From Nonlabens ponticola (GTDB lineage Bacteria; Bacteroidota; Bacteroidia; Flavobacteriales; Flavobacteriaceae), in the NCBI RefSeq assembly GCF_003966335.1, contig NZ_CP034549.1, forward strand, positions 660,001-692,000: 32,000 nucleotides of DNA. The letters are read 5' to 3'. This document shows positions 4,727 through 24,453 of this stretch, in pieces. Numbering within the stretch: the stretch's first letter is position 1; each line of letters starts with the position of its first letter. The notes beneath the pieces are model-generated. The model had not been told where the DNA came from. It was given only the letters and a program-made list of their open reading frames with translations, and searched no databases. The translations under genes and the position numbers were made by a program.

Positions 4727-5746
4727 ATGCTGGATAAGGTTACAGAACATATTAAGAAAGTCGAGTCGTTCAAGGCGAGTGATGCTGCTGCGGTAGAGGC
4801 TTTCAGGATTGAATATTTAGGGACTAAGGGTTTGCTCAAGGAATTGTTTGCGGCCTTTAAGGAAGTGCCCAACGAGCAGAAAAAAGCCTATGGTCAGGCG
4901 ATCAATGAATTGAAGCAAAAGGCGACTGATAAGGTACAGCAACTCAAGGATGAGCTAGAATCAAAGGAAGAAGAAGCTGGTGTTTACGGCGATTTAACCC
5001 GATCTGGTTACCCGATTGAGGTAGGCTCCAGGCATCCTATTTCTATTGTGAAAAACCAAATTATCGAGGTATTCTCACGCATAGGTTTCAACGTGAGTGA
5101 AGGTCCAGAGATTGAGGACGACTGGCACAATTTTACCGCACTCAACCTGCCAGAGCATCACCCAGCGCGCGATATGCAGGATACTTTTTTCATCCAGACA
5201 AATCCTGATGTGTTGCTGCGTACGCATACATCCAGCGTACAGGTGCGATATATGGAAAATAACAAGCCGCCTATCAGGACGATCTCGCCAGGTCGTGTTT
5301 TTAGAAATGAGGCGATAAGTGCACGATCGCACTGTATTTTTCATCAGGTAGAAGGTTTGTACATTGACAAGGATGTGAGTTTTGCAGACTTAAAGCAAAC
5401 GCTGCTTTACTTTACCAAAGAAATGTTCGGCAAGTCAAAAATCAGGTTGCGCCCATCCTATTTCCCATTCACAGAACCCAGCGCAGAAGTTGATATCTAT
5501 TGGGGTCTAGAAACTGAAACCGATTACCGTATCACAAAAGGTACGGGCTGGCTAGAAATCATGGGTTGTGGTATGGTAGATCCTGCGGTACTCACAAACT
5601 GCGGTATTGATCCAGAGGAATATAGCGGTTTTGCCTTTGGTATGGGAATCGAGCGCATTGCGATGTTATTGTATCAAATAGGTGACATACGCATGTTCTT
5701 TGAAAACGATGTGCGTTTCTTGAAGCAGTTTTCCAGCACCTTGTAG
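4727..5746 (+). CDS. pheS: Phenylalanine--tRNA ligase alpha subunit
   Basis: Class II aaRS motifs are present: HPARDMQDTFF, LLRTHTSSVQVRYM, PGRVFRNEAISARSHCIFHQVEG and GFAFGMGIERIAML. The length is 339 aa. Confidence 0.95.
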   Translation: MLDKVTEHIKKVESFKASDAAAVEAFRIEYLGTKGLLKELFAAFKEVPNEQKKAYGQAINELKQKATDKVQQLKDELESKEEEAGVYGDLTRSGYPIEVGSRHPISIVKNQIIEVFSRIGFNVSEGPEIEDDWHNFTALNLPEHHPARDMQDTFFIQTNPDVLLRTHTSSVQVRYMENNKPPIRTISPGRVFRNEAISARSHCIFHQVEGLYIDKDVSFADLKQTLLYFTKEMFGKSKIRLRPSYFPFTEPSAEVDIYWGLETETDYRITKGTGWLEIMGCGMVDPAVLTNCGIDPEEYSGFAFGMGIERIAMLLYQIGDIRMFFENDVRFLKQFSSTL

Positions 5747-6211
5747 TGGCGATTGGTAAGCTCATTTTTGTCTACAATGCAAATTCTGGCCGTATCAATT
5801 CCTGGCTGGATAGCGCACACAAAATCATAAGTCCATCTACCTATCAATGTAAGTTGTGTGAACTGACCCATGGTGCTTTTACAGAGCATGATGAGTGGTC
5901 ACGCTTTCGAGAGAGCCTTGCCGGCGAGCGAGAAGTTTATGCCGGACTCGATCCGGCACGAAAGCTTGCTAGAATCAAACACACAGTTAGAATTTTTGCA
6001 CAAGGATGAATTCAAGCAACGCTACTGGTCAAAATGGTTGCCTAAGTACGATTTCCCAATTATTTTAAGCACCAGCGATGACTTGCAGAAAGATTACCAC
6101 GCACAAGGCAATAGTACTGGAATGGATATCTTTATGACGGCTGGTGAGATGGATGCGTTGGAAACAACGGAAGAGATGATAGTTGCTATTAAGGAAAAAT
6201 TGAAAAGCTAA
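5746..6211 (+). pseudogene. Small conserved protein (N-terminal CxxC, central EFLHKDEF) split into two ORFs by a 49-nt insertion
   Basis: ORF 5746-6009 (frame 1) carries the N-terminal half up to ...HDEWSRFRES. ORF 5870-6211 (frame 2) carries ...ESLLESNTQLEFLHKDEFKQRYWSKWLPKYDFPIIL. Removing nt 5910-5958 joins them in frame as one ~139-aa protein. The GTG start overlaps the pheS stop (TAGTG). Confidence 0.6.
5910..5958 (+). other. 49-nt insertion at the exact centre of a GCTTTCG|CGAAAGC palindrome; contains its own hairpin
   Basis: The half-sites GCTTTCG (5903-5909) and CGAAAGC (5959-5965) flank the insert. The internal hairpin is TGCCGGA-CTCGA-TCCGGCA at 5940-5958. TGCCGG is repeated directly at 5919-5924 and 5940-5945. 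The length is 3n+1, which explains the frameshift. Confidence 0.6.
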
Positions 6212-6214
6212 ATC

Positions 6215-6613
6215 TTGAAAAAAGACATCACCATACCAGAAGTTAAAGACGTTCACATAGCTGTAGTCCACGAGTGGAACGAGGATTTTTCATCGCATGA
6301 TTGGGTCATCTACTTGATCAACAATATGAGAGAACCCATGGAAAGCGTCATGATCATGAGTCGCGGCAAGCATCGTGATGGTCGCAAGACATCAACCTTC
6401 AGGCACGCATTTAAAGTAGTGCCGGCCAAAAGTTCCATAAGAGTCGAGCTCATCATGGAAGACGTCTTCCCATTTCTCAACGAGTTTATCTTGACCTATT
6501 TCAAGGATAAAACACTATATGACAAGACCTACATGGCCGCGCCGAACACGATCAACGAGAAAAATTTAAAAGATTTACCAGTGATGGATGTGCAAGGTGT
6601 GATGATTGATTAA
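6215..6613 (+). CDS. Hypothetical protein (132 aa, TTG start)
   Basis: The ORF starts 4 nt after the preceding stop. I recognise no motif. Its stop codon interlocks with the convergent gene in TTAA (6610-6613). Confidence 0.45.
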   Translation: MKKDITIPEVKDVHIAVVHEWNEDFSSHDWVIYLINNMREPMESVMIMSRGKHRDGRKTSTFRHAFKVVPAKSSIRVELIMEDVFPFLNEFILTYFKDKTLYDKTYMAAPNTINEKNLKDLPVMDVQGVMID

Positions 6614-23913: not shown

Positions 23914-24453
23914 TTATCTGCTTTTATTGAACTCCTGAGCAAACCAATTAAAAGTCTCATTTGCCTGATTGACAATTTTGTCTTGCTGCTCTTTTGAGAA
24001 GTCTACAGCTTTCATTTCTTTCATAAATTGTCGCCAGCGCATGGCGCGCTGCGGTGTGCCAGCTGCATAAAATTGCTGGTCTGGTAAATGAGCTAGGTGC
24101 TCGCATTGCTTGATATGCTGGGCAATCATGGCGCCACCCAGTAAAGAACCCTCGATCACGTATTTGATGCCCAATTGGTTTTCTATAGTTGCGCTTTGAG
24201 GTTTGTAAGATCTTGGAGTAAATGTAGGATCGATAGCTTGCAGGTCTGCTAGTATCCATGCAGCTATGCTGTTGTTTTGTGATGAGGATAGATGAGATTC
24301 TGCTTTCGCGTAAGCGTGATAATTTGCCTGTAACAGCTTTTTATATTGAGAAAGAGTAATTGAGTGATCCATGATGCGATGGGCGCCACTTACTTGCTCC
24401 AGATCAATGTGCGCTGGTCTGGTTTCTTCTCTCAATCTATTGAGTATGCTCAC
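23914..24453 (-). CDS. bphO: Heme oxygenase (biliverdin-producing, BphO-type)
   Basis: The N-terminus LNRLREETRPAHIDLE includes the proximal His context. It is 179 aa. The GTG start overlaps the upstream TAG by 1 nt. It is the last gene of the phytochrome operon. Confidence 0.7.
   Translation of the reverse strand: MSILNRLREETRPAHIDLEQVSGAHRIMDHSITLSQYKKLLQANYHAYAKAESHLSSSQNNSIAAWILADLQAIDPTFTPRSYKPQSATIENQLGIKYVIEGSLLGGAMIAQHIKQCEHLAHLPDQQFYAAGTPQRAMRWRQFMKEMKAVDFSKEQQDKIVNQANETFNWFAQEFNKSR
24302..24315. repeat. One-mismatch copy of the palindrome (GCTTTCGCGtAAGC) inside bphO
   Basis: Read directly. It is translated on the minus strand as AYAKA in NYHAYAKAESH. Confidence 0.7.

What the first reader, a model, noticed from the sequence alone, without database searches (positions are those of the whole stretch)
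5903..5965. A palindrome copy split exactly at its dyad centre by a 49-nt hairpin insert, frameshifting a conserved small gene
**Seen directly.**
- GCTTTCG (5903-5909) and CGAAAGC (5959-5965) are the two halves of the abundant palindrome. They are separated by 49 nt (5910-5958).
- 49 = 3n+1. Deleting exactly these 49 nt fuses ORF 5746-6009 to ORF 5870-6211 in frame.
- The fusion reads ...HDEWSRF-R-ESLLESNTQLEFLHKDEF.... This restores both an intact palindrome and the same FRES reading seen in bioF and the KAS-like gene.
- The insert ends in a 7-bp-stem hairpin, TGCCGGA-CTCGA-TCCGGCA (5940-5958), which abuts the right half-site.
- The insert also contains a second TGCCGG at 5919-5924.

**Inference.**
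- One possibility is that the palindrome centre (TCG|CGA) is a target for insertion of a small element.
- Another is that the 7-bp halves act as terminal inverted repeats of a miniature element that is usually 'empty'.
- Either way this is a snapshot of activity at the motif.
- From memory, homologues of this gene in other flavobacteria are single ORFs of about 130-150 aa spanning both halves.
Basis: partly seen in the sequence, partly recalled or inferred. Interest (0 to 1): 0.85.

Follow-up and report, generated by a model that had tools for sequence, protein, structure and literature searches.

The report
In-frame palindromic mini-element, here frameshifted
The 49-nt insert is a real copy of an apparently undescribed small hairpin repeat that nests inside a very abundant palindrome in Nonlabens genomes; relatives carry it in-frame in this same gene as 15 or 21 extra codons, and only the N. 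ponticola copy has 4 extra bases that break the reading frame.

Summary
GCTTTCG (5903-5909) and CGAAAGC (5959-5965) flank a 49-nt, 61% GC insert with a 7-bp hairpin. Removing it gives a 138-aa ORF that matches single-ORF homologues of 120-140 aa.

The insert is not a one-off. It is the 3' module of a 71-78-nt composite element: outer half-site, spacer, full palindrome, spacer, GAAG-TTTA, hairpin CCGnnCTCGAnnCGG, outer half-site. I found this element at five unrelated intergenic sites in other Flavobacteriaceae. It also sits at exactly this codon position (RFRES) in some Nonlabens orthologues, where it adds 45 or 63 nt in-frame.

Close sister sequences lack it and carry the intact palindrome. 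One sister carries a deletion scar. So the element is both gained and lost at the palindrome.

The N. ponticola copy belongs to the 45-nt type, at 80-84% identity, but has 4 extra nt at about 5919-5922. Those 4 nt cause the frameshift, not the insertion as such.

No Rfam family and no paper matches the element. It resembles REP/BIME repeats and Rickettsia palindromic elements without being a member of either. The insertion mechanism and any function remain inferred. I could not tell whether the frameshift is a real mutation or an assembly error.

The parts
5746..5909 (+). N-terminal coding part of the host gene (frame A): a small CxxC protein directly downstream of pheS, ending in ...EWSRFR.
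   Evidence: ORF list. It is 100% identical to P0120 of N. ponticola.
5903..5909 (+). Left (outer) half-site GCTTTCG of the abundant palindrome.
5910..5916 (+). AGAGAGC, a degenerate copy of the right half-site CGAAAGC. It still encodes (R)ES and is shared with all type A inserts.
   Evidence: Alignment A3. The same variant is kept as a deletion scar in L071.
5917..5931 (+). Spacer X'. It is homologous to the type A spacers of N. marinus and L002 (8-9 of 11 positions).
5919..5922 (+). The 4 extra nt specific to N. ponticola (TGCC; placement ambiguous within about 5917-5925). They turn a 45-nt in-frame insert into 49 nt, cause the +1 frameshift and create the second TGCCGG.
   Evidence: Alignment A3 gap. 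Relatives have 45 nt.
5932..5939 (+). Linker GAAG-TTTA. GAAG is invariant in all copies aligned; TTTA is shared with the other type A copies and all six intergenic copies, while type B copies have CCTG or CCTA.
5940..5958 (+). Hairpin 2: TGCCGGA-CTCGA-TCCGGCA. The stem is kept by compensatory changes across copies.
5959..5965 (+). Right (outer) half-site CGAAAGC.
5959..6211 (+). C-terminal coding part of the host gene (frame B): ...ESLLESNTQLEFLHKDEF... to the stop codon. All conserved motifs are intact.
5892..5975 (+). Extent of the match to the covariance model of the composite element. It is the only such copy in the window.
   Evidence: 43.5 bits, E = 2e-9.

Best explanation
**What it is.** The 49 nt are a copy of a small, structured, non-coding repeat that lives nested inside a hyper-abundant palindrome of Nonlabens and related Flavobacteriaceae. 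That palindrome has the core CGCTTTCGCGAAAGCG and occurs about 2-3 times per 10 kb.

**Anatomy.** The full element is 71-78 nt: outer left half-site, spacer X, a complete inner palindrome, spacer X' complementary to X, GAAG-TTTA, a second hairpin (TGCCGnn-CTCGA-nnCGGyA), and the outer right half-site.

**In this gene.** The palindrome encodes the conserved residues RFRES. The element, or its 3' 45-nt part ('type A'), was acquired inside the palindrome without breaking the frame. Relatives translate it as a 15- or 21-residue surface loop.

**Turnover.** The element is unstable. It is lost again by deletion between its repeated half-sites.

**The N. ponticola copy.** This lineage inherited or received the type A insert. 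A later 4-nt insertion next to the hairpin then made it 49 nt and split the gene into two overlapping ORFs.

**How it spreads (inferred, not shown).** Spread is most simply explained by copying from another composite copy, using the half-sites and their conserved flanks as short homology on both sides. This would be break repair or template switching at a fragile dyad. The alternative is an unidentified hairpin-recognising enzyme acting in trans.
For: **Homology of the insert**
- N. marinus has a 45-nt insert between the same half-sites, translated in-frame as LVNEKFMPCSTRYES. Frame 2 of the N. ponticola insert reads SEKFMPDSIRHES.
- The N. ponticola insert is 36/45 and 38/45 identical to the N. 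marinus and L002 inserts, against 27-31/45 to other copies.
- The host gene is only 57.6% and 66.7% identical for the same pairs.

**Dispersed family**
- Full elements occur between unrelated genes at L019, L055, L058/L067, L068 and L069.
- In all six, a 34-nt stretch GAAGTTTATGCCGCACTCGATGCGGTACGAAAGC is identical, while X and X' differ between copies but stay complementary.
- Single-strand DNA folds reach z = -6.
- The neighbouring genes have unrelated functions.

**Gain and loss at the palindrome**
- L003 versus L070 (90.5% DNA identity) and L004 versus L072 (89.9%): the empty allele is the intact palindrome, and in the filled allele 64 nt replace its central G.
- L071 equals the filled L075 allele minus 45 nt, keeping the mutated left repeat. 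That is a loss.
- Insert-bearing orthologues are scattered on the host-gene tree.

**Reading frame**
- Net lengths in the seven insert-bearing loci from relatives (six distinct proteins; L002 and L066 carry the same sequence) are 45, 45, 45, 45, 63, 63 and 63 nt, all open. Intergenic copies add 58-62 nt.
- N. ponticola has 4 extra nt.

**Hairpin 2**
- It pairs in 100% of cells, with four double-sided changes; 0 of 500 shuffles reach the observed covariation score.

**Non-coding origin and tolerance by the protein**
- Its codons are rare in the host: CGG 1.4, CCG 4.3 and TCG 5.7 per 1000.
- In the structure model the insert is a low-confidence loop between a helix and a strand.

**Not previously described, as far as I could search**
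- No Rfam family matches.
- No paper in the searched library holds the 14-mer.
Against: - No enzyme, donor copy or target-site duplication was identified, so the copying mechanism is pure inference.
- The half-sites give only 8-9 nt of exact homology, short for RecA-type recombination.
- Only one protein-coding host gene was found. In-frame carriage may be a peculiarity of this tolerant loop and not a general property of the element.
- Copy number in N. ponticola is unknown. The genome scan did not list N. ponticola or N. marinus even though both hold exact matches, so that list was incomplete.
- The covariation in hairpin 2 could come from arm-to-arm templated correction of a DNA palindrome and not from selection. 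The hairpin has decayed in L074.
- The host-gene tree is a rough neighbour-joining tree on 127 columns.
- Translation of the insert in relatives is inferred from open frames only.
Confidence: 0.72

Rival explanations
1. The frameshift is an assembly or sequencing error. The real N. ponticola insert would be in-frame, for example 48 nt reading RFRES-LAASEKFMPDSIRHES-LLES, so the gene would be intact as in N. marinus. The element itself would still be real.
For: - The downstream half is fully conserved and has no stop codon.
- All homologous inserts in relatives are multiples of 3.
- The extra bases lie in a GC-rich run, GCCGGC, next to a stable hairpin, a context prone to consensus errors.
- No independent assembly of this strain appeared in the protein collection.
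Against: - The difference from relatives is 4 nt, not 1. A 4-nt error is unusual, and the 48-nt version needs a real 3-nt insertion plus one spurious base.
- None of the roughly 33 other genes in the window looks frameshifted, so the assembly appears clean.
- The 4 nt create a second TGCCGG identical to the hairpin arm. That looks like templated mutation at a quasi-palindrome, a biological signature.
Confidence: 0.25
2. The 45-nt segment is ordinary lineage-specific coding sequence, a loop extension that arose once in this gene. Its palindromic look and flanking half-sites would be incidental, and there would be no repeat family or mobility.
For: - It is translated in-frame in relatives with a recognisable peptide motif, EKFMPxSxR[YH]ES.
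- I found only this one protein-coding host.
- Type A copies in N. ponticola, N. marinus and L002 clearly share ancestry.
Against: - The same 34-nt module occurs, identical, at five unrelated intergenic sites in at least two organisms, always nested in the palindrome.
- Close sisters at 87-91% DNA identity lack it, leaving an exact palindrome or a deletion scar.
- The stem varies by compensatory nucleotide changes that alter the amino acids (D/I, C/T, R/T, H/M).
- The insert uses host-rare codons and is 61% GC.
- The insert is better conserved than the gene around it.
Confidence: 0.04
3. The composite element is a functional RNA, either a small RNA or a cis-acting leader or stabiliser. Its presence in this gene's mRNA would then be regulatory and not selfish.
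For: - All six intergenic copies (five independent sites) point the same way as the downstream gene, and several end 20-70 nt before its start codon.
- Both hairpins show compensatory changes.
- The 34-nt module is invariant across loci.
Against: - The neighbouring genes share no function.
- No Rfam family matches.
- The structure is equally stable on both strands as DNA.
- The element is dispensable in close relatives and its hairpin decays in L074.
- Five sites are too few to establish an orientation bias; 1/32 is not corrected for gene-strand bias.
Confidence: 0.15
4. The 49 nt are decoded around. Ribosomes would take off at GAG-AGC (5911-5916) and land on the matching GAA-AGC (5960-5965) 49 nt downstream, or shift +1 inside the insert, yielding a full-length protein despite the frameshift.
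For: - Matched codon pairs lie exactly 49 nt apart, GAG/GAA and AGC/AGC, because the right half-site is duplicated.
- The insert is GC-rich and contains a hairpin.
- The downstream frame is fully conserved.
- The T4 gene 60 coding gap is 50 nt and is itself carried by a mobile element (bioRxiv 10.1101/2022.08.31.505936).
Against: - No stop or rare codon follows the candidate take-off site; the next codon is CTT at 15 per 1000.
- The hairpin sits at the landing side, not the take-off side.
- Relatives keep the insert as an open multiple of 3 with a conserved peptide, which shows ordinary translation.
- No slippery +1 site is evident.
Confidence: 0.03

Closest known systems
REP / BIME elements of enterobacteria and pseudomonads (repetitive extragenic palindromes and their mosaic clusters)
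   Same: - Short imperfect palindromes in hundreds of copies.
- Composite 'mosaic' forms in which palindromic units are joined by conserved linkers.
- Presence/absence variation between relatives.
- Possible mobilisation by a hairpin-recognising enzyme in trans.
   Different: - The Nonlabens palindrome lies inside genes in all three frames as often as between them.
- There is no GTAG head.
- The composite is nested inside one palindrome instead of being an array of units.
- A RAYT gene could not be looked for.
- It is carried in-frame within a coding sequence.
Rickettsia palindromic elements (RPEs)
   Same: Both are palindromic repeats found between genes and also inserted in-frame in protein-coding genes. 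Both add a peptide segment the host protein tolerates (PMC10969869, section 4.2).
   Different: - RPEs are about 150 bp, occur in alphaproteobacteria, have no sequence similarity to this element, and have many host genes.
- This element adds only 45-63 nt and has one known host gene.
- Its insertion point is always the centre of a specific pre-existing palindrome.
HIP1-type highly iterated palindromes of cyanobacteria (comparison from my own knowledge)
   Same: The parent 14-16-mer is a hyper-abundant perfect palindrome found inside and outside genes. It is conserved at orthologous codons.
   Different: - It is 14-16 bp against 8 bp for HIP1.
- HIP1 is not known to host a nested hairpin element.
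- No link to a methyltransferase was tested here.
MITEs
   Same: Both are small, non-autonomous and structured, show filled and empty sites, and have occasional in-frame fusions.
   Different: - There is no target-site duplication; 64 nt replace 1 nt.
- The 'terminal inverted repeats' are the halves of the target palindrome itself.
- The element is smaller than typical MITEs.
- No parent IS is known.
T4 gene 60 and mitochondrial 'byp' translational bypass inserts
   Same: All are inserts of about 50 nt, GC-rich and hairpin-bearing, sitting in a coding region flanked by matching codons and of mobile origin (bioRxiv 10.1101/2022.08.31.505936).
   Different: - Relatives translate the insert normally.
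- There is no stop codon after the take-off codon.
- The hairpin is on the wrong side.
- This is a resemblance only.

Membership tests
REP/BIME | Short imperfect palindrome present in hundreds of copies per genome | tested here: met
   There are 41 exact copies in 178 kb of Nonlabens-type DNA, or 2-3.4 per 10 kb. The window has 7 against 0 expected.
REP/BIME | Extragenic location | tested here: not met
   Six of the 9 plain copies in the window (including the two 1-mismatch copies) lie inside ORFs of 100 aa or more, read as AFAKA (AYAKA in the 1-mismatch copy at 24302), LSRK or RFRES. The composite lies inside this gene in 8 loci.
REP/BIME | Mosaic arrangement of palindromic units with conserved linkers | tested here: met
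   The arrangement is palindrome, X', GAAGTTTA, hairpin 2, half-site, with an invariant 34-nt module.
REP/BIME | Conserved 5' GTAG tetranucleotide and an associated RAYT (Y1 transposase) gene | not testable with these tools
   No GTAG appears in the consensus. The whole genome was not available to search for a RAYT gene.
MITE | Target-site duplication flanking the element | tested here: not met
   Filled/empty comparisons show 64 nt replacing the central G of the palindrome, with no duplication of flanking sequence.
MITE | Terminal inverted repeats matching a parent insertion sequence | tested here: inconclusive
   The outer 8-nt inverted repeats are the two halves of the target palindrome. 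No parent IS could be sought.
Rickettsia palindromic elements | Palindromic repeat inserted in-frame in protein-coding genes and compatible with the protein | tested here: met
   Open in-frame inserts of 45 or 63 nt occur in six orthologous proteins. The insert is modelled as a surface loop. Translation was not tested experimentally.
Rickettsia palindromic elements | Sequence or size relationship to RPE families (about 100-150 bp, Rickettsia) | tested here: not met
   The element is 45-78 nt, is found in Flavobacteriaceae, and has no Rfam match.
Rickettsia palindromic elements | Insertion into many unrelated genes | tested here: inconclusive
   Only this gene was found as a coding host. The peptide-based search could not detect short matches, and the DNA scans were limited or truncated.
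Programmed translational bypass (T4 gene 60 type) | Matching take-off and landing codons flanking the gap | tested here: met
   GAG-AGC at 5911-5916 and GAA-AGC at 5960-5965 lie 49 nt apart.
Programmed translational bypass (T4 gene 60 type) | Stop or hungry codon right after take-off, and a hairpin at the take-off site | tested here: not met
   The next codon is CTT, at 15 per 1000. The hairpin at 5940-5958 abuts the landing site.
Programmed translational bypass (T4 gene 60 type) | Gap not constrained to be an open multiple of three in homologues | tested here: not met
   All homologous inserts in relatives are 45 or 63 nt and open, with a conserved peptide.
HIP1-like iterated palindrome (applies to the parent palindrome) | Perfect palindrome strongly over-represented inside and outside genes and kept at orthologous positions | tested here: met

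The most novel reading that the evidence does not exclude
The N. ponticola gene is still expressed as one protein because ribosomes bypass the insert. They would hop from GAG-AGC (5911-5916) to the matching GAA-AGC (5960-5965) 49 nt downstream. This would be a bacterial chromosomal counterpart of the mobile 50-nt coding gap of phage T4 gene 60 and of the mitochondrial 'byp' inserts. The palindrome-nested hairpin element would then be a mobile bypass cassette.
Probability: 0.03. Interest if true: 0.9.

Novelty: new variant of a known kind. Interest (0 to 1): 0.55.

Why it matters
- **A new place for small repeats to live.** A hyper-abundant palindrome in a marine flavobacterial genus serves as a docking site for a second, smaller structured repeat. 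That repeat can sit inside a protein-coding gene as a tolerated 15-21-residue loop.
- **Among the smallest in-frame repeat inserts.** As far as I know, at 45-63 nt it is one of the smallest in-frame repeat insertions seen in bacteria, and it comes with natural filled, empty and scarred alleles. That gives a tractable system for asking how palindromes are cut, repaired or targeted, and how selfish or structural DNA becomes protein sequence.
- **Practical point for annotators.** Split or 'hypothetical' small ORFs next to GCTTTCG...CGAAAGC in these genomes may be one gene interrupted by this element.

Tried and rejected
- **Rfam.** Searches of the window and five loci at a permissive E-value gave no family for the element.
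- **Literature.** The 14-mer appears in no paper; 'highly iterated palindrome' plus Flavobacteri gave nothing; one unrelated paper mentions N. ponticola.
- **Genome-collection scan.** The hairpin-plus-half-site pattern gave 60 loci. Most were chance matches in high-GC taxa and only 3 were real. N. ponticola and N. marinus were missing although they match, so the list is incomplete and says nothing about copy number.
- **Viral and plasmid searches.** One chance viral match in 59% GC DNA, and no plasmid match.
- **Module in other proteins.** A protein search with concatenated translations of the module found no candidates. It also missed P0049, which shares HSMRYESV, so it is uninformative.
- **Regulon-specific leader or riboswitch.** Rejected, because the neighbouring genes are unrelated.
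- **Spacers as copies of local flanks.** I considered that X and X' duplicate the sequence next to each insertion site, which would be a long target duplication. By eye, similarity was near chance for non-AT-rich flanks (for example 3/12 for L004). It is better explained by the general flank consensus of the palindrome.
- **IS200/IS605-type insertion 3' of a fixed target.** The junctions do not fit, because one central nucleotide is missing on either parse.
- **Host protein.** It has no Pfam or NCBIfam family. The fold search gave only weak thioredoxin-like hits.
Full report
**1.
The window is from Nonlabens ponticola: the 87-aa ORF 5746-6009 is 100% identical to a protein of that species carried on a 2.87-Mb contig.

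GCTTTCG (5903-5909) and CGAAAGC (5959-5965) enclose 49 nt (5910-5958) that end in the hairpin TGCCGGA-CTCGA-TCCGGCA. The intact 14-mer GCTTTCGCGAAAGC occurs 7 times exactly, and twice with one mismatch, in 32 kb against 0 expected. A split copy with a 30-60 nt gap occurs once against 0.01 expected.

The insert is 61% GC in a 41% GC window. Removing it fuses ORFs 5746-6009 and 5870-6211 into a 138-aa protein.

**2. A single ORF is the norm.**
The fused protein finds 583 homologues. The 120 listed are mostly single ORFs of 118-148 aa, and most cover 93-100% of the fusion. In every locus fetched the gene lies directly downstream of pheS.

R53-F54-R55 are invariant or nearly so, even in other genera. 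The palindrome here therefore overlies a conserved protein motif and was not itself inserted.

The protein has no Pfam or NCBIfam family. It has a conserved CxxC motif. Its model (mean pLDDT 67) gives only weak thioredoxin-like fold matches. The database label 'GTPase' is unsupported.

**3. The insert is homologous to in-frame inserts in relatives.**
Six of the 120 listed homologues carry extra residues exactly after RFRES.
- Type A: N. marinus P0084 and P0099 (LVNEKFMPCSTRYES / LTNEKFMPCSTRYES), and P0076 (LANEKFMPRSTRYES).
- Type B: P0049, P0052 and P0082 (RFLEGF-RFRES-EIQKKPVPHSMRYES and variants).

At the DNA level, type A is 45 nt lying between GCTTTCG and CGAAAGC. Type B is the intact palindrome preceded by an extra CGCTTTC plus 11 nt and followed by 38 nt plus a second CGAAAGC, a net gain of 63 nt.

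Type A equals type B minus one 18-nt direct-repeat unit. Whether it arose that way is not shown.

The second frame of the N. ponticola insert reads ASEKFMPDSIRHES. Its DNA is 36/45 identical to N. marinus and 38/45 to L002, against 27-31/45 to all other copies. In the variable spacer it shares 8-9 of 11 positions with type A, against 1-3 with the others. It is therefore a type A copy.

N. ponticola differs by 4 extra nt (TGCC at about 5919-5922).

So the frameshift comes from a secondary 4-nt change, not from the insertion as such.

**4. The insert belongs to a dispersed composite element.**
Pattern scans found the same module at other sites:
- two sites on one Nonlabens MAG contig (L019, L055); that MAG's own copy of this gene, P0007, has an empty site;
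- a Flavobacteriales MAG (L058);
- three large contigs of one metagenome (L067, orthologous to L058; L068; L069).

Each site carries a 71-78-nt unit: CGCTTTC - X - CGCTTTCGCGAAAGCG - X' - GAAG - TTTA - TGCCGCA-CTCGA-TGCGGTA - CGAAAGC.

A 34-nt stretch from GAAG to the outer half-site is identical in all six copies. X and X' differ in length and sequence between copies but remain complementary.

The consensus fold is an outer stem made of the two half-sites, closing a long hairpin 1 and a short hairpin 2. Single-strand DNA folds reach z = -6 on either strand.

All six copies lie between genes and point the same way as the downstream gene. Those genes are a sulfatase, an ABC ATPase, HtpG (twice, at the orthologous L058/L067 site), a methyltransferase and TopA, which have nothing in common.

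A covariance model built from eight copies finds only these eleven composite copies in 178 kb of related DNA. Just one is in the window, at 5892-5975 with 43.5 bits. Hairpin 2 hardly ever occurs without the half-site.

Rfam has no matching family, and the 14-mer appears in no paper of the searched library.

**5. The element is gained and lost at the palindrome.**
Insert-bearing orthologues are scattered over the host-gene tree, with empty sisters close by. Outside the inserts, the pairs are 95% (P0049/P0019), 87.5% (P0084/P0063) and 92% (P0082/P0061) identical in protein.

| Filled locus | Empty locus | DNA identity | Empty-site sequence |
|---|---|---|---|
| L003 | L070 | 90.5% | TTACGCTTTCGCGAAAGCGTAA (intact palindrome) |
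| L004 | L072 | 89.9% | CACGCTTTCGCGAAAGCGTA (intact palindrome) |
| L001 (N. marinus) | L071 | 87.2% | GCTTTCGAGAGAGCGTC (scar) |

In the first two pairs the filled site has 64 nt in place of the palindrome's central G. There is no target duplication.

The third pair shows the reverse process. The empty allele L071 reads GCTTTCGAGAGAGCGTCATCACAACAAAC. That is the filled L075 allele minus 45 nt, and it keeps the mutated left repeat AGAGAG that marks all type A inserts. This is a deletion between the imperfect direct repeats, so it is a loss.

An empty orthologue in the neighbouring clade, L076, has an intact palindrome.

Plain palindromes, by contrast, are stable. Many sit at the same codon of orthologous genes in up to five loci.

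**6. There is constraint on both frame and structure.**
Net insert lengths in the seven insert-bearing loci from relatives (six distinct proteins; L002 and L066 carry the same sequence) are 45, 45, 45, 45, 63, 63 and 63 nt, all open. Intergenic copies add 58-62 nt.

The stem of hairpin 2 reads CA/TG in type B and the intergenic copies, TG/CA in N. marinus and L075, CG/CG in L002, and GA/TC in N. ponticola. In the formal count on the 11 aligned copies (L074 not included) it is always complementary: 100% of cells paired, four double-sided changes, and 0 of 500 shuffles as high.

These nucleotide changes alter the amino acids (H/M, C/T, R/T, D/I). What is conserved is therefore the pairing, not the peptide.

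The type A insert is better conserved than the gene around it: 80-89% against 58-67% for the same pairs.

Two caveats apply. The hairpin has decayed in L074. And arm-to-arm templated correction of DNA palindromes could mimic selection.

The insert uses host-rare codons: CGG 1.4, CCG 4.3 and TCG 5.7 per 1000. In the structure model of the N. marinus protein it is a low-confidence loop (residues 62-74) between helix 49-59 and strand 81-86. That position could plausibly tolerate extra residues.

**7. Most likely mechanism.**
Shown:
- The element is a repeat family nested in the palindrome.
- It is carried in-frame in this gene.
- It is present or absent between close relatives, and at least one absence is a deletion.
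- N. ponticola has a type A copy with 4 additional nt.

Inferred:
- The junctions (ACGCTTTC | 64 nt | CGAAAGCG replacing ACGCTTTC-G-CGAAAGCG) are what copying from another composite locus would give, with the two half-sites and their conserved flanks serving as short homology. That could be break repair or template switching at a fragile dyad. The same process using a plain palindrome as template would remove the element in one step.
- A dedicated hairpin-recognising enzyme is the alternative. I could not look for one.
- The 4-nt addition duplicates the 5' arm of hairpin 2 (TGCCGG). That is the pattern expected of templated mutation at a quasi-palindrome, and it favours a real mutation over a sequencing error.
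- None of the roughly 33 other genes in the window looks frameshifted.

I put the frameshift at about 70% a genuine mutation that splits or inactivates the gene, 25% an assembly error and 3% recoding, with the remainder unassigned.

**8. Comparison with known systems.**
The palindrome plus composite resembles REP/BIME repeats: abundant palindromes and mosaic forms. It fails the 'extragenic' criterion and lacks the GTAG head.

It behaves like the Rickettsia palindromic elements in being carried in-frame within a protein (PMC10969869). It is far smaller, unrelated in sequence, and always sits inside a specific palindrome.

It is not a MITE in the strict sense, because it has no target-site duplication.

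The parent palindrome resembles cyanobacterial HIP1 in abundance and in occurring inside genes (comparison from my own knowledge).

The 49-nt, GC-rich, hairpin-bearing gap flanked by matching codons recalls the mobile T4 gene 60 bypass cassette (bioRxiv 10.1101/2022.08.31.505936). However, no stop or rare codon follows the take-off site, the hairpin is on the wrong side, and relatives translate the insert. I rate bypass at about 3%.

**9. Verdict.**
It is a new variant of the small palindromic repeat theme, with a clear target site, natural filled, empty and scarred alleles, and in-frame carriage within a protein.

The frameshift itself is a secondary 4-nt event of uncertain reality. The copy number in N. 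ponticola, the mobilising mechanism and any function remain open.

Noticed in passing
L003 10257-10340 (also protein P0022); L067 6387, 7191, 7373 (+) and 7252 (-): A second dispersed repeat, with core CCAG[C/T]ATCGAGCGACAGTCGAGATA, is inserted in-frame in the same loop of the same gene in P0049 (NPASSDSRDTSDSAALSKSQRRDASDS). It is absent from the close sister L070. A shorter PASSDSRD segment occurs at the same place in P0022 (seen at protein level only). Related copies occur four times within 1.2 kb of L067. This loop of the host protein seems to be a hotspot for small repeat insertions.
   Followed up: partly
window 4616, 7721, 12938, 13656, 20151, 28700, 31584 and 34 copies in related loci: The 14-mer palindrome has an extended consensus, ..TT[A/T]CGCTTTCGCGAAAGCG[A/T]AA.., and strongly skewed flanks. 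About 25 nt on the left are G/T-rich and about 25 nt on the right are A/C-rich, whatever the gene, frame or strand. Many copies sit at the same codon of orthologous genes in several species. I have no explanation for the flank skew.
   Followed up: partly
L003 13445-13463; L070 9393-9412: A solitary hairpin-2-like unit (TTCCGTA-CTCGA-TGCGGAA in L003) lies downstream of the asparaginase gene without any palindrome half-site next to it. L070 has a weak covariance-model match to hairpin 2 at the corresponding place. These are the only such solo copies seen.
   Followed up: no
window 5746-6211 and homologues: Public databases name this protein family 'GTPase', but it matches no Pfam or NCBIfam model. 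It has a conserved CxxC motif, and its model gives only weak thioredoxin-like fold matches. The name looks wrong.
   Followed up: partly
L001 10432-10593, L005 3097-3258, L071 962-1123, L075 1932-2093, L076 1253-1414: A 53-aa ORF lies between this gene and the conserved 132-aa downstream gene in some species. It is missing in N. ponticola (window 6211-6215) and in several other loci.
   Followed up: no
L003 9215-9998 and 11799-12098: In this metagenome contig, pheS is split into two ORFs and the 3-HAO gene is truncated. That suggests local assembly errors or real decay. It is a reminder that single metagenomic alleles should be read with care.
   Followed up: no
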